Below, in pieces: positions 34,067 to 39,129 of a DNA stretch of 64,000 bases. The notes beneath the pieces were generated by a model, which saw only the letters and a list, made by a program, of their open reading frames with translations, had not been told where the DNA came from and ran no database searches. Origin of the DNA: Minisyncoccota bacterium (GTDB taxonomy: Bacteria; Patescibacteriota; Minisyncoccia; Phycocordibacterales; UBA6065). The stretch's first letter is position 1; every line of letters begins with the position of its first letter. The stretch is from assembly GCA_036400935.1 (NCBI GenBank), contig DASWWW010000001.1, positions 46,096 through 110,095 on the forward strand. The letters are read 5' to 3'. The position numbers were made by a program, and so were the translations under genes.

Positions 34067-35281
34067 ATGATGAGAAAGCGTGTTAAGGGCTTCTGGCAAA
34101 AATGCGGCTGGCTGGGTGCGGCTGTTGCCATAATGCTGGCGCTCTGCGTCTGTATGGCCTCATATCTTGCTTACGGCGACTCGCTCCGTTACTCCGAGGC
34201 GGGCGAGCTAAAAGGGAAGGCTTTGAATTTCAAGGATCTCTCCGTATTTTTCGCCGATCTCGCCCATGAGAAGGGCGCGATCTACGCATTCGAAGTCCTT
34301 AAGCGCGCGCCGCTTCCCCCGAATATCGATATACATCTTTTGGGTCACGTGGTGGGCGATATCCTGTACGAGCAGGAAGGGCCTGAAGGAATCATGCTCT
34401 GCACTTCTGATTTCCGAAATGCCTGCTCGCATACGATCGTGATAGGCACGCTTCTTGAGAAGGGGCCCGATTCGTTTAGCGAGATCGCCGCTCTCTGCAG
34501 GCGCGCGCCGGGCGGCTCTGGCGCCTATACCATGTGCTTCCACGGCCTTGGCCACGGCGTCCTCGCTTTCAACGACTACGAGCTCCCAACGGCTGTAAAG
34601 ATGTGCGAGAAGGCGAGCCCTACCAGAGGCCGCGAATACCGCGAATGCGTAGGCGGAACGATCATGGAGATGATCTCCGGCGTCCATGACGTCGAGATGT
34701 GGAAGGAGAAGGTAAAAAAATATTTCAAAGATGAGGACCCTCTCTATCCTTGCAGCGCCTCTTTCATTCCTAATGAGGCGAAGAGCATGTGCTACACGTA
34801 CCTTACCCCGCATTTGTTCACGGCGGCGGGCGCCGATCTGGGCCGCCCGGATTTGAAGAGCATCGAAAAGGCATTTACATACTGCGACCCCCTGAAGGGC
34901 CAATCCCGCAACGCCTGCTTTGACGGCTTCGGGAAGGAGTTTGCAGTGCTCGTCCAGAATCGAGATATCCGTATTATCGAATCGATGACTGAAAAGCAGA
35001 TGACGAGGATGCTCGATATGTGCGAGCTCGCAAAGCCGCGCGACGGCCAGATCAAGTGCCTCTTGGGCGCCCTGCACTCGCTCTTTTGGGGAGGCGAGAA
35101 CGACCCTTCGGTATCTTTGCGCATGTGCGCCGTGGCCGAGACTCGAGGCGAAGGGAAGGAGTGCTATGAGGATCTTATCAAAACGACAGGGCATTATATT
35201 AGCGACAAGAAGAGGCGGACCGATATCTGCGAGGCGATGATCGAGCCATATATCACCCAATGCAAAAAAGAGCTTATCTAA
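34067..35281 (+). CDS. membrane-anchored Cys/His-rich extracytoplasmic protein, paralog 1 of 3
   Basis: TM anchor; motifs HLLGHVVGDILYE, CTSDFRNACSHT, CFHGLGHGV, about 18 Cys. Confidence 0.55.
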   Translation: MMRKRVKGFWQKCGWLGAAVAIMLALCVCMASYLAYGDSLRYSEAGELKGKALNFKDLSVFFADLAHEKGAIYAFEVLKRAPLPPNIDIHLLGHVVGDILYEQEGPEGIMLCTSDFRNACSHTIVIGTLLEKGPDSFSEIAALCRRAPGGSGAYTMCFHGLGHGVLAFNDYELPTAVKMCEKASPTRGREYRECVGGTIMEMISGVHDVEMWKEKVKKYFKDEDPLYPCSASFIPNEAKSMCYTYLTPHLFTAAGADLGRPDLKSIEKAFTYCDPLKGQSRNACFDGFGKEFAVLVQNRDIRIIESMTEKQMTRMLDMCELAKPRDGQIKCLLGALHSLFWGGENDPSVSLRMCAVAETRGEGKECYEDLIKTTGHYISDKKRRTDICEAMIEPYITQCKKELI

Positions 35282-36288
35282 ATTTTAAGAACTCACTTCT
35301 GATCGTCGCTGTCGCCGTTATGGCGATTGTCGTCGGATTTGAGTCGTATTTCCTTCTGAAAAACGACAAGCCTCAGGATCCCCTCAGAGCCCTATGGTCG
35401 GGCAATTTCACAAAGGAGCGCGAAGCTTGGAAGAAGCAAATCGACAGGGTTGGTACAGAAAAGGCGTATGAGGAATTCAGGGCAGAGACCCTCGCAAAGC
35501 CATTCGGCATCGGCCACACTCTCGCTCATATATTCGGCGAGCTTATTTACGACAAGGAGGGAGTGCCCGGCATCGCCTATTGCGACAGCTCGTTCTCGTA
35601 CGGCTGCTATCACAGCTTTTTCGGCAAGGCCATCAGCGAGCATGGCGTCGGAATCTTGCCCGACCTCGACAAGAAGTGTATAGGGCGCTGGGGCGAAGGG
35701 GGCCTGGGTTGCCAGCACGGCATTGGTCATGGACTTATGGGCTATCTTGGCGATGACAAGATAAACGAGGCCCTGGAATTGTGCGGGACCCTTACATGGA
35801 AAGGGGAATTGGGCGGCTGCTCGAGCGGAGTGTTTATGGAATACAATTTTCACACGATGCAGAGCCTGACGGGAATCGAGAATCGCCCATTCGACGCCAA
35901 AGATCCGCTCTACCCCTGCGAATCGGTCCCAAAGAAATACACACGATCCTGCTATTTTGAGCTCGCGGACTGGCTGGGCCAGGTATTTGCAAAGGATTAT
36001 ACGAAAGTGGGCGATATCTGCCGCACGGTCGCGGACAAGAATTCGCGGGACATTTGCTTCAAGGGCTTGGGCAATTCGCTTGCTGTAGCGGTATCGTTCG
36101 ACGTTGCGAAAGGGGTAAATGCCTGCTCGCGGCTCGATGGCGAGCAAGAGAATCTCCTTTGCAGGATAGGCGTCGGTTGGGCTTTCTATAGCGAGCCGAA
36201 TCTCAGGGAAAAATATCGGATGCTGTGCGGGGGTCTATCTACCACCGATCAGGCCACCTGCTTAAAAGAGGCAACGCTGCTAAAATAG
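35260..36288 (+). CDS. membrane-anchored Cys/His-rich extracytoplasmic protein, paralog 2 of 3
   Basis: GIGHTLAHIFGELIYD, CDSSFSYGCYHS, CQHGIGHGL, colinear with paralog 1. Confidence 0.5.
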   Translation: MQKRAYLNFKNSLLIVAVAVMAIVVGFESYFLLKNDKPQDPLRALWSGNFTKEREAWKKQIDRVGTEKAYEEFRAETLAKPFGIGHTLAHIFGELIYDKEGVPGIAYCDSSFSYGCYHSFFGKAISEHGVGILPDLDKKCIGRWGEGGLGCQHGIGHGLMGYLGDDKINEALELCGTLTWKGELGGCSSGVFMEYNFHTMQSLTGIENRPFDAKDPLYPCESVPKKYTRSCYFELADWLGQVFAKDYTKVGDICRTVADKNSRDICFKGLGNSLAVAVSFDVAKGVNACSRLDGEQENLLCRIGVGWAFYSEPNLREKYRMLCGGLSTTDQATCLKEATLLK

Positions 36289-36293
36289 TCTCA

Positions 36294-37466
36294 ATGAGGA
36301 ATATCGTTATCGCAATCGCGATCGTCGCAGCATTCATTGCCGGCGAGATCGTCTATTTGAAATCAGGCCCTTCATATGGAGGCTTGGACAAGCTCGCGAG
36401 CAAGATAATCTCCGACTGCGCCGATGCGCCATACAAGCCTACTTGTTACGAAGAGGAGATACCGAGGCTTATGAATAGGATTTCCATGGAGGACGCATTC
36501 AAAGTAACCCGTTTCGTCCAAAGCATGGATAGGACATATCAGTATTGCCATGTCTTGGGGCACAAGATCGCCGCAGCCGAGACGGCGACGGATCCTGCAC
36601 GCTGGCAGACCGTCATACAGCGCTGTCCGTCGGGCGTCTGCTCAAACGGCTGCATTCACGGAGCGTTTCAGGAACGCTTTAGGAAAGAATCGCTCACCGA
36701 CGATGAGATCTTAAAGCTCAAGCCGCAGCTCTCTTCTGTCTGTGAGAAGAAATCGGGCTTCAATCCGACCGGCCTCGAGCAGGGAAGCTGCTATCACGCT
36801 CTCGGACACCTTTTGATGTATATCACCGAGGCGGATGTACCAAAATCGCTCGCGCTGTGCAATGAGTTCAGCAAGAAGCCGACCCACGATTACTCGCACG
36901 TCTGCTATGACGGGGTATTCATGCAGATTTATCAGCCGCTCGAGCCAGACGACTTCAGCCTGATCGAGGGGAAGGAGGTTTCGCGCGAGGAAGTTTCCGC
37001 GTTCTGCGGCGCTTTCACGGGCGAGGAGGCCGGCTCGTGCTATTCGGAATCGTGGCCGCTCTTCTATGAGGATTTGCGAAAGCCTACCAATCTCCTGAAA
37101 TTCTGCGCAAAACCGGAGGGCGAAAAGGAGCAGCGAAGATGCTTCGACACTTTGATGTACGTCATGGCCGCTCAGTTTGCCTTCAATAATGAAAAAATAT
37201 TCGCGTACTGCGAGGCAATGCCTACCGATTTCCACAAGGCAACCTGCATGGCCCAGGCTGCCAACCGCATGATCGAAACCGACTACTCCAACGGCGAATT
37301 GGCAACAGCCGTCTGCGAGAGGGCGGAGGCGTATGACAAGGATCACATCTGCTTCAATGACCTGTTGAAGTATTCGACGTTCAATTTCCATAAGGGGTCT
37401 GAGCCCTGGAAAGCTTTTTGTAACGCTATGCCGGAGCCGTGGATGGCGCGATGTTTGAGCCGCTAG
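36294..37466 (+). CDS. membrane-anchored Cys/His-rich extracytoplasmic protein, paralog 3 of 3
   Basis: CHVLGHKIAA, CPSGVCSNGCIHGA, CYHALGHLL; start at MRNIVIAIAI. Confidence 0.55.
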   Translation: MRNIVIAIAIVAAFIAGEIVYLKSGPSYGGLDKLASKIISDCADAPYKPTCYEEEIPRLMNRISMEDAFKVTRFVQSMDRTYQYCHVLGHKIAAAETATDPARWQTVIQRCPSGVCSNGCIHGAFQERFRKESLTDDEILKLKPQLSSVCEKKSGFNPTGLEQGSCYHALGHLLMYITEADVPKSLALCNEFSKKPTHDYSHVCYDGVFMQIYQPLEPDDFSLIEGKEVSREEVSAFCGAFTGEEAGSCYSESWPLFYEDLRKPTNLLKFCAKPEGEKEQRRCFDTLMYVMAAQFAFNNEKIFAYCEAMPTDFHKATCMAQAANRMIETDYSNGELATAVCERAEAYDKDHICFNDLLKYSTFNFHKGSEPWKAFCNAMPEPWMARCLSR

Positions 37467-38366: not shown

Positions 38367-38399
38367 CGCGAAAAAACCGCCGCCGGCGGTTTTTTCGCG
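38367..38399. terminator. bidirectional terminator cgcgaaaaaaccgccgccggcggttttttcgcg
   Basis: Perfect palindrome between convergent genes. Confidence 0.5.
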
Positions 38400-38415
38400 C
38401 ATTCAGTTGCGCTGA

Positions 38416-39129
38416 TTATTTCTTTCCTAGGGCTGTATCGAACTTATCTTCGAGCGTCGCTGTGGTAGCTGCGCCCTTGATTGCCGTTGGGCCGTCTTTG
38501 GTAATGAGGACACTGTACGGCGTGCCCGATGCTCCCGCGACCGCGCCTTCCTTGATCGAGGCGTCGATTTTTGCCTTGTACTTGCCGCTCGTAAGGCATG
38601 AGTTGAATTTTGTCACATCGAGACCGACGTGCGCCGCGATCTTTGGGAGCTCTGCCGGATCAAGCTTGTTGTTGGTAGGAGAAATCTCGAATACGCGGTC
38701 TACGTATGCCCAGAATTTCGCGTTTCCGCCCTGCTCGGCTGCGCATTCTGCCGCTTCTGCTTCCTTGAATGCCTTATCGTGGAACGGGAGGGGGAACGGA
38801 CGATACACTACCGCTACGTCATCAGGGCTATATTTTGCGATAGCTGTTTTGATATTGCCGTGATACTGCTTGCAAAATGGACATTCGAGGTCCGTATAGA
38901 CAATAAGCTTTACCTTTGCGGCTGGATTTCCGAGAACATGATCCGCGCTCGTCACCGGGGCGATCTTGATGCCGGTATTTGCCACGGCGGCAGGGTTCGC
39001 CGAAGCGGTTGCGACGCCTCCGCCGCTAATTTCCCGCGCGCCCATGTAAATGCTCGCTCCGATAAGCGCTCCCGCGATAATGACCGATACGGGCAGCGTC
39101 AACCACTCCTGATTATTTATATGCGTCAT
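38416..39129 (-). CDS. DsbA-family thiol:disulfide oxidoreductase (membrane-anchored)
   Basis: Thioredoxin fold with CPFC active site (YTDLECPFCKQYH). Confidence 0.75.
   Translation of the reverse strand: MTHINNQEWLTLPVSVIIAGALIGASIYMGAREISGGGVATASANPAAVANTGIKIAPVTSADHVLGNPAAKVKLIVYTDLECPFCKQYHGNIKTAIAKYSPDDVAVVYRPFPLPFHDKAFKEAEAAECAAEQGGNAKFWAYVDRVFEISPTNNKLDPAELPKIAAHVGLDVTKFNSCLTSGKYKAKIDASIKEGAVAGASGTPYSVLITKDGPTAIKGAATTATLEDKFDTALGKK

What the first reader, a model, noticed from the sequence alone, without database searches (positions are those of the whole stretch)
34067..39129. Three tandem paralogs of a membrane-anchored Cys/His-rich family, followed by a cupredoxin-like protein and DsbA
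Genes 34067, 35260 and 36294 are colinear paralogs (340-410 aa) with an N-terminal TM anchor and 15-18 Cys each. They share recurring His-containing motifs: HxxGHxxG, CxxxFxxxCxH and C(F/Q/Y)HGxGHG. This looks like an extracytoplasmic metal-binding or disulfide-rich family that I cannot assign to any named domain. Downstream are a cupredoxin-like fold protein and a CPFC DsbA on the opposite strand, the enzyme such proteins would need to fold. Local triplication of an unknown secreted family is typical of host- or environment-interaction genes.
Basis: seen in the sequence. Interest (0 to 1): 0.7.

Follow-up and report, generated by a model that had tools for sequence, protein, structure and literature searches.

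The report
Patescibacterial Cys/His helical-repeat and cupredoxin operon
Three adjacent genes encode ancient, disulfide-stapled helical surface proteins with five invariant histidines; they sit in a conserved operon with three copper-protein-like partners, found here almost only in ultra-small Patescibacteria, match no described family, and most likely bind or pass on a metal such as copper outside the cell.

Summary
Genes 34067-35281 (A), 35260-36288 (B) and 36294-37466 (C) are divergent paralogs (20-29% identity), each with an N-terminal membrane anchor and 14-20 Cys.

They are not a recent local triplication. A, B and C are separate, ancient orthogroups kept in this order in most of the 80 related loci fetched, nearly all from MAGs named as Patescibacteria.

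The domain is an all-alpha helical-repeat (solenoid) fold (AlphaFold pLDDT 94.9). In 637 domain sequences, consecutive Cys appear and disappear as pairs, and five His (HxxxH...H...CxHxxxH) are present together in 98%.

The operon has six genes. It also encodes a degenerate plastocyanin-like protein (33578-34060), a CopC-fold protein whose mature N-terminus is an invariant His (37490-37984), and an amicyanin-like cupredoxin whose copper-binding Cys is replaced by Asp and which has four invariant His (37977-38366). A CPFC DsbA lies convergent to it.

In other genomes this cupredoxin is fused to the helical domain, and up to ten helical domains are fused in one chain.

Best reading, inferred and untested: a membrane-tethered extracytoplasmic metal-handling or redox module, probably using copper.

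The parts
33578..34060 (+). g160: 160-aa protein with an N-terminal membrane anchor and a C-terminal degenerate plastocyanin-like cupredoxin domain. It has two invariant Cys (C87, C147); the copper-ligand His is common but not invariant, and there is no His or Met after the Cys.
   Evidence: A family profile (A5) hits the cupredoxin domain of copper nitrite reductase, a blue copper protein and plastocyanins at E=1e-4 to 4e-3. It lies directly upstream of the A-type gene in 19 of 69 loci. It ends 6 nt before A starts.
34067..35281 (+). Paralog A (404 aa): membrane anchor followed by a disulfide-stapled alpha-solenoid. It has 8 consecutive Cys pairs and the five His H90, H94, H122, H159 and H163.
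   Evidence: AlphaFold pLDDT is 94.9 and pTM 0.88. It is identical to a protein of a Candidatus Paceibacterota MAG (P0001).
35260..36288 (+). Paralog B (342 aa): same architecture, 7 Cys pairs, His H86, H90, H118, H153 and H157. Its start overlaps the end of A by 22 nt.
   Evidence: The same kind of A/B overlap (25 nt) is seen in locus L001.
36294..37466 (+). Paralog C (390 aa from the ATG at 36294; the alternative GTG at 36225 gives 413 aa): same architecture, 20 Cys, His H86, H90, H122, H168 and H172.
   Evidence: Orthologs are 50-57% identical in L001 and L003.
37490..37984 (+). g164: signal peptide, a beta-sandwich of CopC-like fold whose first mature residue is an invariant His (H20), and a C-terminal membrane helix.
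37977..38366 (+). cup129: membrane-anchored amicyanin-like cupredoxin with a non-canonical site (WPASxLHPTH ... YHDH). H80, H83, H114 and H116 are invariant and D115 nearly invariant. D115 stands at the position of the type-1 copper Cys, and the Met and second His ligands are absent. Its start overlaps the end of g164 by 8 nt.
   Evidence: The domain is found fused N-terminally to the helical domain in about 490-aa proteins in 36 of 56 related loci.
38416..39129 (-). Membrane-anchored DsbA-type thiol:disulfide oxidoreductase (CPFC), convergent with the operon.
   Evidence: Pfam Thioredoxin_4 E=3.2e-21 and DSBA E=7.6e-15, both above the curated cut-offs. A DsbA gene is adjacent in only 8 of 56 related loci.

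Best explanation
The region is a six-gene operon, g160-A-B-C-g164-cup129, with a convergent dsbA. It encodes a membrane-tethered, extracytoplasmic metalloprotein module that, in the genomes sampled here, is almost confined to Patescibacteria.

A, B and C are ancient paralogs of one new domain. The domain is a solenoid of two-helix repeats in which each repeat is stapled by a disulfide between consecutive Cys, made by DsbA. The N-terminal repeats carry five essentially invariant His (HxxxH, then H, then CxHxxxH). I read this His cluster as a transition-metal site.

The three helical proteins probably work side by side as an array on the outer face of the membrane, together with three small beta-sandwich partners built on copper-protein folds. 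These partners are a degenerate plastocyanin-like protein, a CopC-fold protein with an N-terminal His (a mono-histidine-brace candidate like YcnI), and an amicyanin-like cupredoxin with four His and an Asp in place of the Cys ligand.

The most likely job is to capture, hold and pass on copper, or to carry out copper-dependent electron transfer, at the cell surface.

Shown: homology, fold class, paired Cys, invariant His, gene order, fusions, and the folds of the partners.

Inferred: that the Cys pairs are disulfides, that the His bind a metal, that the metal is copper, that the proteins touch each other, and what the module does for the cell.
For: 1. The five His are the only invariant residues other than Cys or Gly in 40 members that are 17-48% identical to B. 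All five are present in 627 of 637 unique domain sequences.

2. Consecutive Cys are gained and lost as pairs. Column pair 121/130: both present in 496 sequences, neither in 138, one only in 3. Pair 96/126: 240, 397, 0. Pair 273/285: 542, 93, 2. Cys-Cys pairs also rank among the strongest direct couplings, including rank 1. The Cys counts outside the membrane are even: 16, 14 and 20.

3. The model of A is confident and all-alpha (pLDDT 94.9).

4. Gene neighbourhood in 56 informative loci: B-type 89%, C-type 89%, a cup129-type cupredoxin (free or fused) 91%, g164 51%. Of 403 cluster genes, 391 are on the same strand.

5. Fusions point to physical association. Cupredoxin plus helical domain fusions occur in 36 of 56 loci, and 67 of 76 keep both cupredoxin His motifs. 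Polyproteins with 6-10 helical domains behind a single N-terminal hydrophobic segment also exist, for example P0280 with 3580 aa.

6. The cup129 profile hits amicyanin at E=1e-6, with the invariant His aligned at or next to the copper site.

8. Genes in the window are separated by 5-23 nt or overlap by 8-22 nt.
Against: - No metal was measured, and metal identity cannot be computed.
- None of the three beta-sandwich partners has a canonical copper ligand set. cup129 has Cys replaced by Asp and lacks Met. g160 lacks the second His and the Met. g164 lacks the second His of the CopC brace.
- No CopA, CopZ, CopD, CsoR or other known copper gene is conserved next to the cluster. An ArsR-type regulator was seen beside it in only one lineage.
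- I could not read the model coordinates, so the spatial clustering of the five His is inferred from helix positions and a weak covariation signal. That signal rests on about seven sequences, probably one or two evolutionary events.
- Five fusion proteins that lost three of the helical His keep the cupredoxin His motifs. The two sites are therefore independent, which argues against one shared inter-domain centre.
- N-terminal His proteins can bind nickel or other metals rather than copper.
- DsbA is adjacent in only 14% of loci.
Confidence: 0.45

Rival explanations
1. The solenoids are structural or adhesive surface scaffolds (protein- or glycan-binding repeat proteins, as TPR and Sel1-like repeats often are). 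They would serve in envelope organisation or attachment to the host cell. The His would be structural or bind a structural Zn, and the cupredoxin-like partners would be non-metallated beta-sandwich modules.
Against: Binding scaffolds rarely keep five His at 98-100% across members only 17-25% identical while everything else drifts. A-type orthologs are 40-61% identical across distant lineages, which fits neither a host-facing variable adhesin nor diversifying selection. The cupredoxin His motifs are also invariant.
Confidence: 0.2
2. The helical domain is a new extracytoplasmic metalloenzyme whose His cluster is the active site. It could be an oxidase, for instance reducing O2 or oxidising thiols and so re-oxidising DsbA in cells without quinones. 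It could instead be a hydrolase or oxygenase acting on envelope or host polymers. The cupredoxin would act as its electron partner.
For: The HxxxH + H + HxxxH arrangement on helices recalls the His-on-helix binuclear centres of type-3 copper proteins and hemerythrin (my own knowledge, not tested). Fusion to a cupredoxin domain is typical of redox enzymes. A DsbA is adjacent here and in some other loci.
Against: No fold or sequence match to any enzyme. Outside the His and Cys, no acidic or other catalytic residue is conserved across the paralog groups; for example E201 of A is Gln in C and often Asn in the fusions. Having 3-11 paralogs per locus is unusual for a single enzyme. Many Patescibacteria live without oxygen (background knowledge).
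Confidence: 0.15
3. The cluster is a copper-dependent ferroxidase-type iron uptake system, analogous to EfeO (cupredoxin plus helical metal-binding domain) and to P19/FtrA. Fe(II) would be oxidised at a copper site and Fe(III) handed on.
Confidence: 0.07
4. One reading: a recent local triplication of a secreted family under diversifying selection, as in host- or environment-interaction gene expansions.
For: Copy number does vary between genomes, from 1 to 11 helical-family genes per locus, so some lineage-specific expansion occurs on top of the conserved core.
Against: A, B and C are 20-29% identical to each other but up to 61%, 51% and 60% identical to their own orthologs in other lineages, and they keep the same order.
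Confidence: 0.03

Closest known systems
Sel1-like repeat / Helicobacter cysteine-rich proteins (HcpB, HcpC) and TPR-type alpha-solenoids
   Same: Extracytoplasmic solenoids of two-helix repeats of about 35-45 residues, with one Cys pair per repeat joining the end of one helix to the start of the next. Foldseek's weak best matches include TPR proteins and the Sel1-like protein AlgK.
CopC / PcoC / CrdA family and B. subtilis YcnI (periplasmic or surface copper chaperones with an N-terminal histidine brace)
   Different: No Pfam CopC or DUF1775 match at E<=0.1 in 29 members. No CopD-type importer is present in the cluster. The second His of the canonical brace is absent.
Amicyanin / plastocyanin (type-1 blue copper cupredoxins)
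   Same: cup129 and g160 have the cupredoxin fold, detectable by sequence profile (E=1e-6 and 1e-4). The first His ligand is retained in cup129.
   Different: In cup129 the Cys ligand is Asp and the Met and second His ligands are missing, while two extra invariant His appear (HPTH, HDH). g160 keeps the Cys but lacks the downstream His and Met. Neither can be a classical blue copper electron carrier. JGI names such proteins 'plastocyanin', and PMC12931201 treats Patescibacteriota single-cupredoxin proteins annotated as plastocyanin as electron carriers to NirK. I did not check whether the proteins in that paper belong to the cup129 family.
EfeO (cupredoxin domain + helical M75 metal-binding domain) of EfeUOB iron uptake
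   Same: The fused paralogs elsewhere have the same outline: an N-terminal Cupredoxin_1-type domain followed by an all-alpha, His-bearing domain outside the membrane.
   Different: There is no sequence or fold relation of the helical domain to M75/imelysin. No EfeU or EfeB partners are present. The resemblance is analogy only.
His-on-helix binuclear metal centres (type-3 copper of tyrosinase/hemocyanin; hemerythrin di-iron)
   Same: HxxxH motifs and single His on neighbouring helices, five to six His in all (compared from my own knowledge).
   Different: A different fold (four-helix bundle versus solenoid) with no detectable homology. The geometry could not be tested here.

Membership tests
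Sel1-like repeat / Hcp family | Match to the Pfam Sel1 (or TPR) repeat models | tested here: not met
   No Sel1 or TPR hit for A, B or C at E<=1, nor for 40 divergent members at E<=0.01.
Sel1-like repeat / Hcp family | Two-helix repeats, each bridged by a disulfide between paired Cys | tested here: inconclusive
Cupredoxin fold (applied to cup129, 37977-38366) | Sequence or profile similarity to cupredoxin domains | tested here: met
   Pfam Cupredoxin_1 matches 19 of 22 members, best E=6.3e-9; the window protein itself scores below the cut-off (20.6 versus 27 bits). The family profile hits amicyanin at E=9.7e-7.
Type-1 blue copper protein (plastocyanin / amicyanin), applied to cup129 and g160 | Ligand set His ... 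Cys-x(n)-His-x(n)-Met | tested here: not met
   In the profile alignment to amicyanin, cup129 YHDHL aligns with YHCTP, so Cys is replaced by Asp115 and the His and Met that follow are absent. g160 keeps an invariant Cys147 but has no conserved His or Met after it, and its N-terminal ligand His is not invariant.
CopC family (applied to g164, 37490-37984) | CopC-type beta-sandwich fold | tested here: met
CopC family (applied to g164) | His as first mature residue plus a second His completing the histidine brace; Pfam CopC match | tested here: not met
   The N-terminal His is invariant. No second His is conserved; the window protein has only H20 and H163, and H163 is the next-to-last residue, at the end of the C-terminal membrane helix. 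No Pfam CopC hit in 29 members at E<=0.1.
YcnI / DUF1775 mono-histidine brace | N-terminal His + carboxylate ligand + conserved Trp, with a C-terminal membrane helix; Pfam DUF1775 match | tested here: inconclusive
DsbA (38416-39129) | Thioredoxin fold with a CxxC active site, exported or membrane-anchored | tested here: met
   Thioredoxin_4 scores 76.7 bits and DSBA 55.6 bits, both above the cut-offs. The sequence contains a CPFC motif and an N-terminal hydrophobic segment.
EfeO (Cup + Peptidase_M75) | M75/imelysin helical domain with an HxxE metal motif, and EfeU/EfeB partners | tested here: not met
Type-3 copper / hemerythrin-like binuclear centre | Two metal ions, each held by His from a helical bundle | not testable with these tools
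   Model coordinates and metal-site predictors were not available. Only the motif pattern is known.

The most novel reading that the evidence does not exclude
The helical Cys/His domain is a new class of extracytoplasmic metalloprotein: a His-cluster copper (or mixed-metal) centre built into a disulfide-stapled solenoid. Arrays of these domains, wired by non-canonical cupredoxins and a histidine-brace protein, would form a surface redox machine unique to Patescibacteria. One example would be a quinone-independent route that passes electrons from DsbA or other surface thiols, or from the cell, to O2 or another external acceptor, in organisms that lack a respiratory chain.
Probability: 0.12. Interest if true: 0.9.

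Novelty: categorically new. Interest (0 to 1): 0.66.

Why it matters
Patescibacteria (the Candidate Phyla Radiation) make up a large share of bacterial diversity, and many of their conserved genes have no known function.

This work turns three anonymous 'hypothetical proteins' into a defined, testable system:
- a domain family with about 5,500 sequence clusters (at 50% identity) in public data;
- a confident fold;
- a five-His signature;
- paired Cys;
- a conserved operon with three partners of copper-protein ancestry.

If the His cluster binds copper, this would be a new metalloprotein architecture and a first handle on metal biology at the surface of these ultra-small, mostly uncultured cells. 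That could include a metal requirement relevant to growing them.

There is also a practical caution. The single-domain cupredoxins of this family (cup129 type) that JGI names 'plastocyanin' lack the type-1 copper ligands, so they should not be assumed to be plastocyanin-type electron carriers without checking the site.

Tried and rejected

2. The AlphaFold-database fold library was not available.

3. Recent duplication or assembly artefact: rejected by the 20-29% identity and the orthology pattern.

4. dN/dS among the copies was not computed, because synonymous sites are saturated at this divergence.

5. A conserved transporter, regulator or known copper gene next to the cluster. Clustering 485 unassigned neighbouring ORFs from the 80 loci gave only housekeeping genes, heterogeneous large secreted proteins and more divergent members of the same family.

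6. A shared inter-domain metal site between the cupredoxin and the helical domain: not supported. Five fusions that lost three helical His keep the cupredoxin His motifs.

7. Promoter and terminator scans gave no more sites than in shuffled sequence.

8. Literature searches on Patescibacteria, Parcubacteria or Candidate Phyla Radiation combined with cupredoxin, plastocyanin, blue copper, cysteine-rich or DsbA found no description of this cluster.

9. Direct-coupling analysis (637 sequences, 396 columns) recovered Cys-Cys partners. Its His-His couplings rest on too few variant sequences to prove proximity.

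
Full report
**What is there.** The window comes from a Candidatus Paceibacterota (Patescibacteria) genome. Protein A is identical to a protein of such a MAG on a 206-kb contig.

On the + strand, six ORFs are packed with gaps of 5-23 nt or overlaps of 8-22 nt:

| Gene | Coordinates | Length |
|---|---|---|
| g160 | 33578-34060 | 160 aa |
| A | 34067-35281 | 404 aa |
| B | 35260-36288 | 342 aa |
| C | 36294-37466 | 390 aa (an alternative GTG start lies at 36225) |
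| g164 | 37490-37984 | 164 aa |
| cup129 | 37977-38366 | 129 aa |

A DsbA gene (38416-39129) converges on them from the - strand. Promoter-like and terminator-like sites are no more frequent than in shuffled sequence. The operon call therefore rests on spacing, common orientation and conserved synteny.

**Checking the observation.** A, B and C are homologous. A/B share 29% identity (E=3e-22), A/C 21% (E=2e-10) and B/C 22% (E=5e-8). This rules out both chance and assembly duplication.

Each has one N-terminal hydrophobic anchor. Cys counts are 19, 14 and 20. Three of A's Cys lie in the N-terminal cytoplasmic/membrane segment, so the counts outside the membrane are 16, 14 and 20, all even.

**The family.** A alone has more than 1,100 homologs in the large protein collection. 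The 120 best hits listed carry no Pfam domain. The few that have names are called 'hypothetical protein' and come from Patescibacteria lineages, apart from one labelled as an archaeon.

A profile of A+B+C finds 5,519 clusters at 50% identity (3,725 at E<=1e-10) among 1.84 billion representatives.

All searches for a named family were negative:
- Pfam and NCBIfam, for A, B and C and for 40 divergent members.
- PDB sequence profiles: nothing better than E=0.09 for the A profile, and nothing at E<=1 for the superfamily profile.

AlphaFold2 with 61 sequences gives a confident model (pLDDT 94.9, pTM 0.88). It has a membrane helix followed by about 20 helices.

The domain is thus an alpha-solenoid with no solved or described relative.

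**Anatomy of the domain.** Cys come in consecutive pairs 7-15 residues apart, with 21-34 residues between pairs. In the model, the first Cys of a pair ends one helix and the second opens the next.

In 637 unique domain sequences, these neighbours are gained and lost together:

| Column pair | Both present | Neither | One only |
|---|---|---|---|
| 121/130 | 496 | 138 | 3 |
| 96/126 | 240 | 397 | 0 |
| 273/285 | 542 | 93 | 2 |
| 375/386 | 481 | 143 | 13 |

Cys-Cys pairs are also among the strongest direct couplings, including rank 1. This is what disulfide partners look like. It fits the location outside the membrane and the neighbouring DsbA, but disulfides were not observed directly.

Apart from Cys and Gly, the only invariant residues in 40 members that are 17-48% identical to B are five His. 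They are H86, H90, H118, H153 and H157 in B, and H90, H94, H122, H159 and H163 in A.

All five are present in 627 of 637 sequences. The CxHxxxH motif occurs in 365 of 375 family ORFs from related loci.

From the helix limits of the model, H94, H159 and H163 should lie at similar height on neighbouring helices, with H90 and H122 close by. This is inference, because I could not read the coordinates.

A small, old subgroup of fusion proteins has lost exactly H94, H159 and H163 together, which produces a His-His coupling signal (ranks 28, 41 and 46 of 75,855). It rests on about seven sequences, so it is only a hint.

**Not a local triplication.** I fetched 80 loci from species-representative genomes. 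Most titles name Patescibacteria lineages: Paceibacterota/Parcubacteria, Kaiser-, Taylor-, Nomura-, Yanofsky-, Doudna- and Daviesbacteria, and Microgenomates. Some records are labelled Gammaproteobacteria, Saccharibacteria, Nanoarchaeia or Bacteroidetes; I did not verify these labels.

Window A is 40-61% identical to the A-type gene in these loci, B up to 51% and C up to 60%. Between the paralogs, identity is only 20-29%.

Among 56 loci with at least 8 kb downstream of A:
- a B-type gene is present in 89% and a C-type gene in 89%;
- a cup129-type cupredoxin, free or fused, is present in 91%;
- g164 is present in 51%, g160 in 37% and DsbA in 14%;
- the median is five helical-family genes per locus (range 1-11);
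- 391 of 403 cluster genes share the strand of A;
- an A-type gene is followed by a B-type gene in 42 of 61 cases.

The A/B start-stop overlap recurs in L001. The paralogs are therefore old, separately conserved and co-transcribed.

**The partners.**

*cup129.* A family profile hits amicyanin at E=1e-6. In that alignment the first copper-ligand His is kept (H80), the ligand Cys is Asp115, and the second His and the Met are missing. Four His are invariant: H80, H83, H114 and H116, in the motifs WPASxLHPTH and YHDH. JGI names such proteins 'plastocyanin', and a recent paper treats Patescibacteriota single-cupredoxin proteins annotated as plastocyanin as electron carriers to NirK (PMC12931201). 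The ligand set of the cup129 family does not support a plastocyanin-type site. I did not check whether that paper's proteins belong to this family.

*g160.* This is a more degenerate plastocyanin-like domain, with profile hits at E=1e-4 to 4e-3. It has two invariant Cys and no His or Met after the ligand Cys.

*g164.* It has a signal peptide, then a His at +1 of the predicted cleavage site in all 29 sequences of one alignment; that His is also invariant in a second alignment of 38 sequences. D36 and W70 are invariant, E27 and D52 nearly so, and there is a C-terminal membrane helix.

- An N-terminal His is a recognised metal chelator, the histidine brace (PMC12537917).
- Like YcnI, g164 has the N-terminal His, a conserved Trp, candidate carboxylate ligands and a C-terminal membrane helix, with no second His (PMC8424229).
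- There is no Pfam CopC or DUF1775 match, so this is a resemblance, not membership.

**Fusions.** In 36 of 56 loci there are proteins of about 490 aa made of an anchor, a cup129-type cupredoxin and the helical domain. Of 76 such fusions, 67 keep both cupredoxin His motifs, and 70 keep the helical CxHxxxH motif.

The representative library also holds polyproteins with many helical domains. P0280, for example, has 3580 aa, 144 Cys, ten matched stretches at a period of about 430 aa, and a single N-terminal hydrophobic segment.

These fusions argue that the helical domains act next to each other and next to the cupredoxin.

Five fusions that lost three helical His still keep the cupredoxin His. 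The two sites are therefore separate rather than one shared centre.

**Interpretation.** The best-supported reading is a membrane-tethered, extracytoplasmic metal-handling or redox module. Disulfide-stapled solenoids carry a His-cluster metal site and work with three small proteins of copper-protein ancestry.

Copper is the most likely metal. The reasons are the two cupredoxin folds, the CopC-like N-terminal-His protein and the location outside the membrane.

It remains an inference. No partner has a canonical copper site, no known copper gene is conserved nearby, and other metals can occupy such sites.

The rivals are:
- structural or adhesive scaffolds;
- a new metalloenzyme, such as an oxidase;
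- an EfeO/P19-like iron system, which lacks its permease here;

**Novelty.** The central domain matches no described sequence family or solved fold beyond the general class of helical repeats, and I found no paper on the cluster. The flanking proteins are new variants of known folds.

I rate the system as new in kind. The caveat is that its function is inferred, and conserved families of unknown function are common in these organisms.

Noticed in passing
P0280 (3580 aa), P0281 (2143 aa), P0284, P0285 from the representative library: Giant polyproteins with 6-10 tandem copies of the Cys/His helical domain behind one N-terminal hydrophobic segment. P0280 has 144 Cys and a period of about 430 aa. 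In these proteins the tandem genes seen in the window appear fused into one chain. The source organisms are unnamed.
   Followed up: partly
window 37977-38366 and its homologs P0121-P0240: Many homologs of this single-domain cupredoxin are named 'plastocyanin' by JGI. A 2025 paper treats Patescibacteriota single-cupredoxin proteins annotated as plastocyanin as electron carriers to NirK. The cup129 family lacks the type-1 copper Cys and Met ligands. I did not check whether the paper's proteins belong to this family.
   Followed up: partly
window 23754-29816 (+ strand): A run of five secreted or anchored proteins (733, 330, 263, 164 and 170 aa) with no Pfam match. The Cys-rich 263-aa one (27954-28745) resembles ORFs found upstream of the cluster in other loci, for example L005 6909-7730. 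Large low-complexity secreted proteins of 800-2200 aa often precede the cluster elsewhere.
   Followed up: partly
window 48815-49264 and 49513-49962 (- strand): Two adjacent 149-aa ORFs with similar N-termini (MN..IPELTALP.G.YR), apparently tandem paralogs, each followed by a short overlapping ORF. They were not examined.
   Followed up: no
window 34208-35260, 35392-36147 and 36711-37391 (- strand): Long antisense ORFs (350, 251 and 226 aa) lie inside A, B and C. Given the conserved sense-strand proteins, they are most likely non-coding by-products of composition.
   Followed up: no
L003/L021, about 7068-7421 in L003: An ArsR/SmtB-type HTH_5 regulator is divergently adjacent to the g160-A-B-C block in one lineage. 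This family includes metal sensors. It is not a conserved neighbour in the other loci.
   Followed up: partly
L020, L023, L035, L054, L063, L078 and L014, L034 (record titles): Several MAGs carrying the cluster are labelled Gammaproteobacteria, Nanoarchaeia or Bacteroidetes, although the cluster otherwise occurs in Patescibacteria. One such record is an 835-kb contig. The labels may be wrong and were not verified.
   Followed up: no
window 39174-40910 (+), 40968-41753 (-), 29879-33568: Neighbouring genes are a PilB/GspE-type secretion ATPase, a SIMPL/DUF541 protein and a weak PDZ protein. There is also a large membrane protein at the position where the related locus L001 has a PMT_2 gene, and a probable GT2 glycosyltransferase with a LAB_N-like small membrane protein. 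GT2, LAB_N and PMT_2 genes also flank the cluster in L001.
   Followed up: partly
window 4837-6972, 11113-11183 and 51119-52483: Nine tRNA genes in three groups (Rfam).
   Followed up: no
L028 11076-11555 and 12956-13918, and five or six other loci: A pair of ORFs recurs inside the cluster in a minority of genomes: a 160-aa membrane protein and a 320-aa multi-pass membrane protein. Neither has an informative Pfam match.
   Followed up: partly
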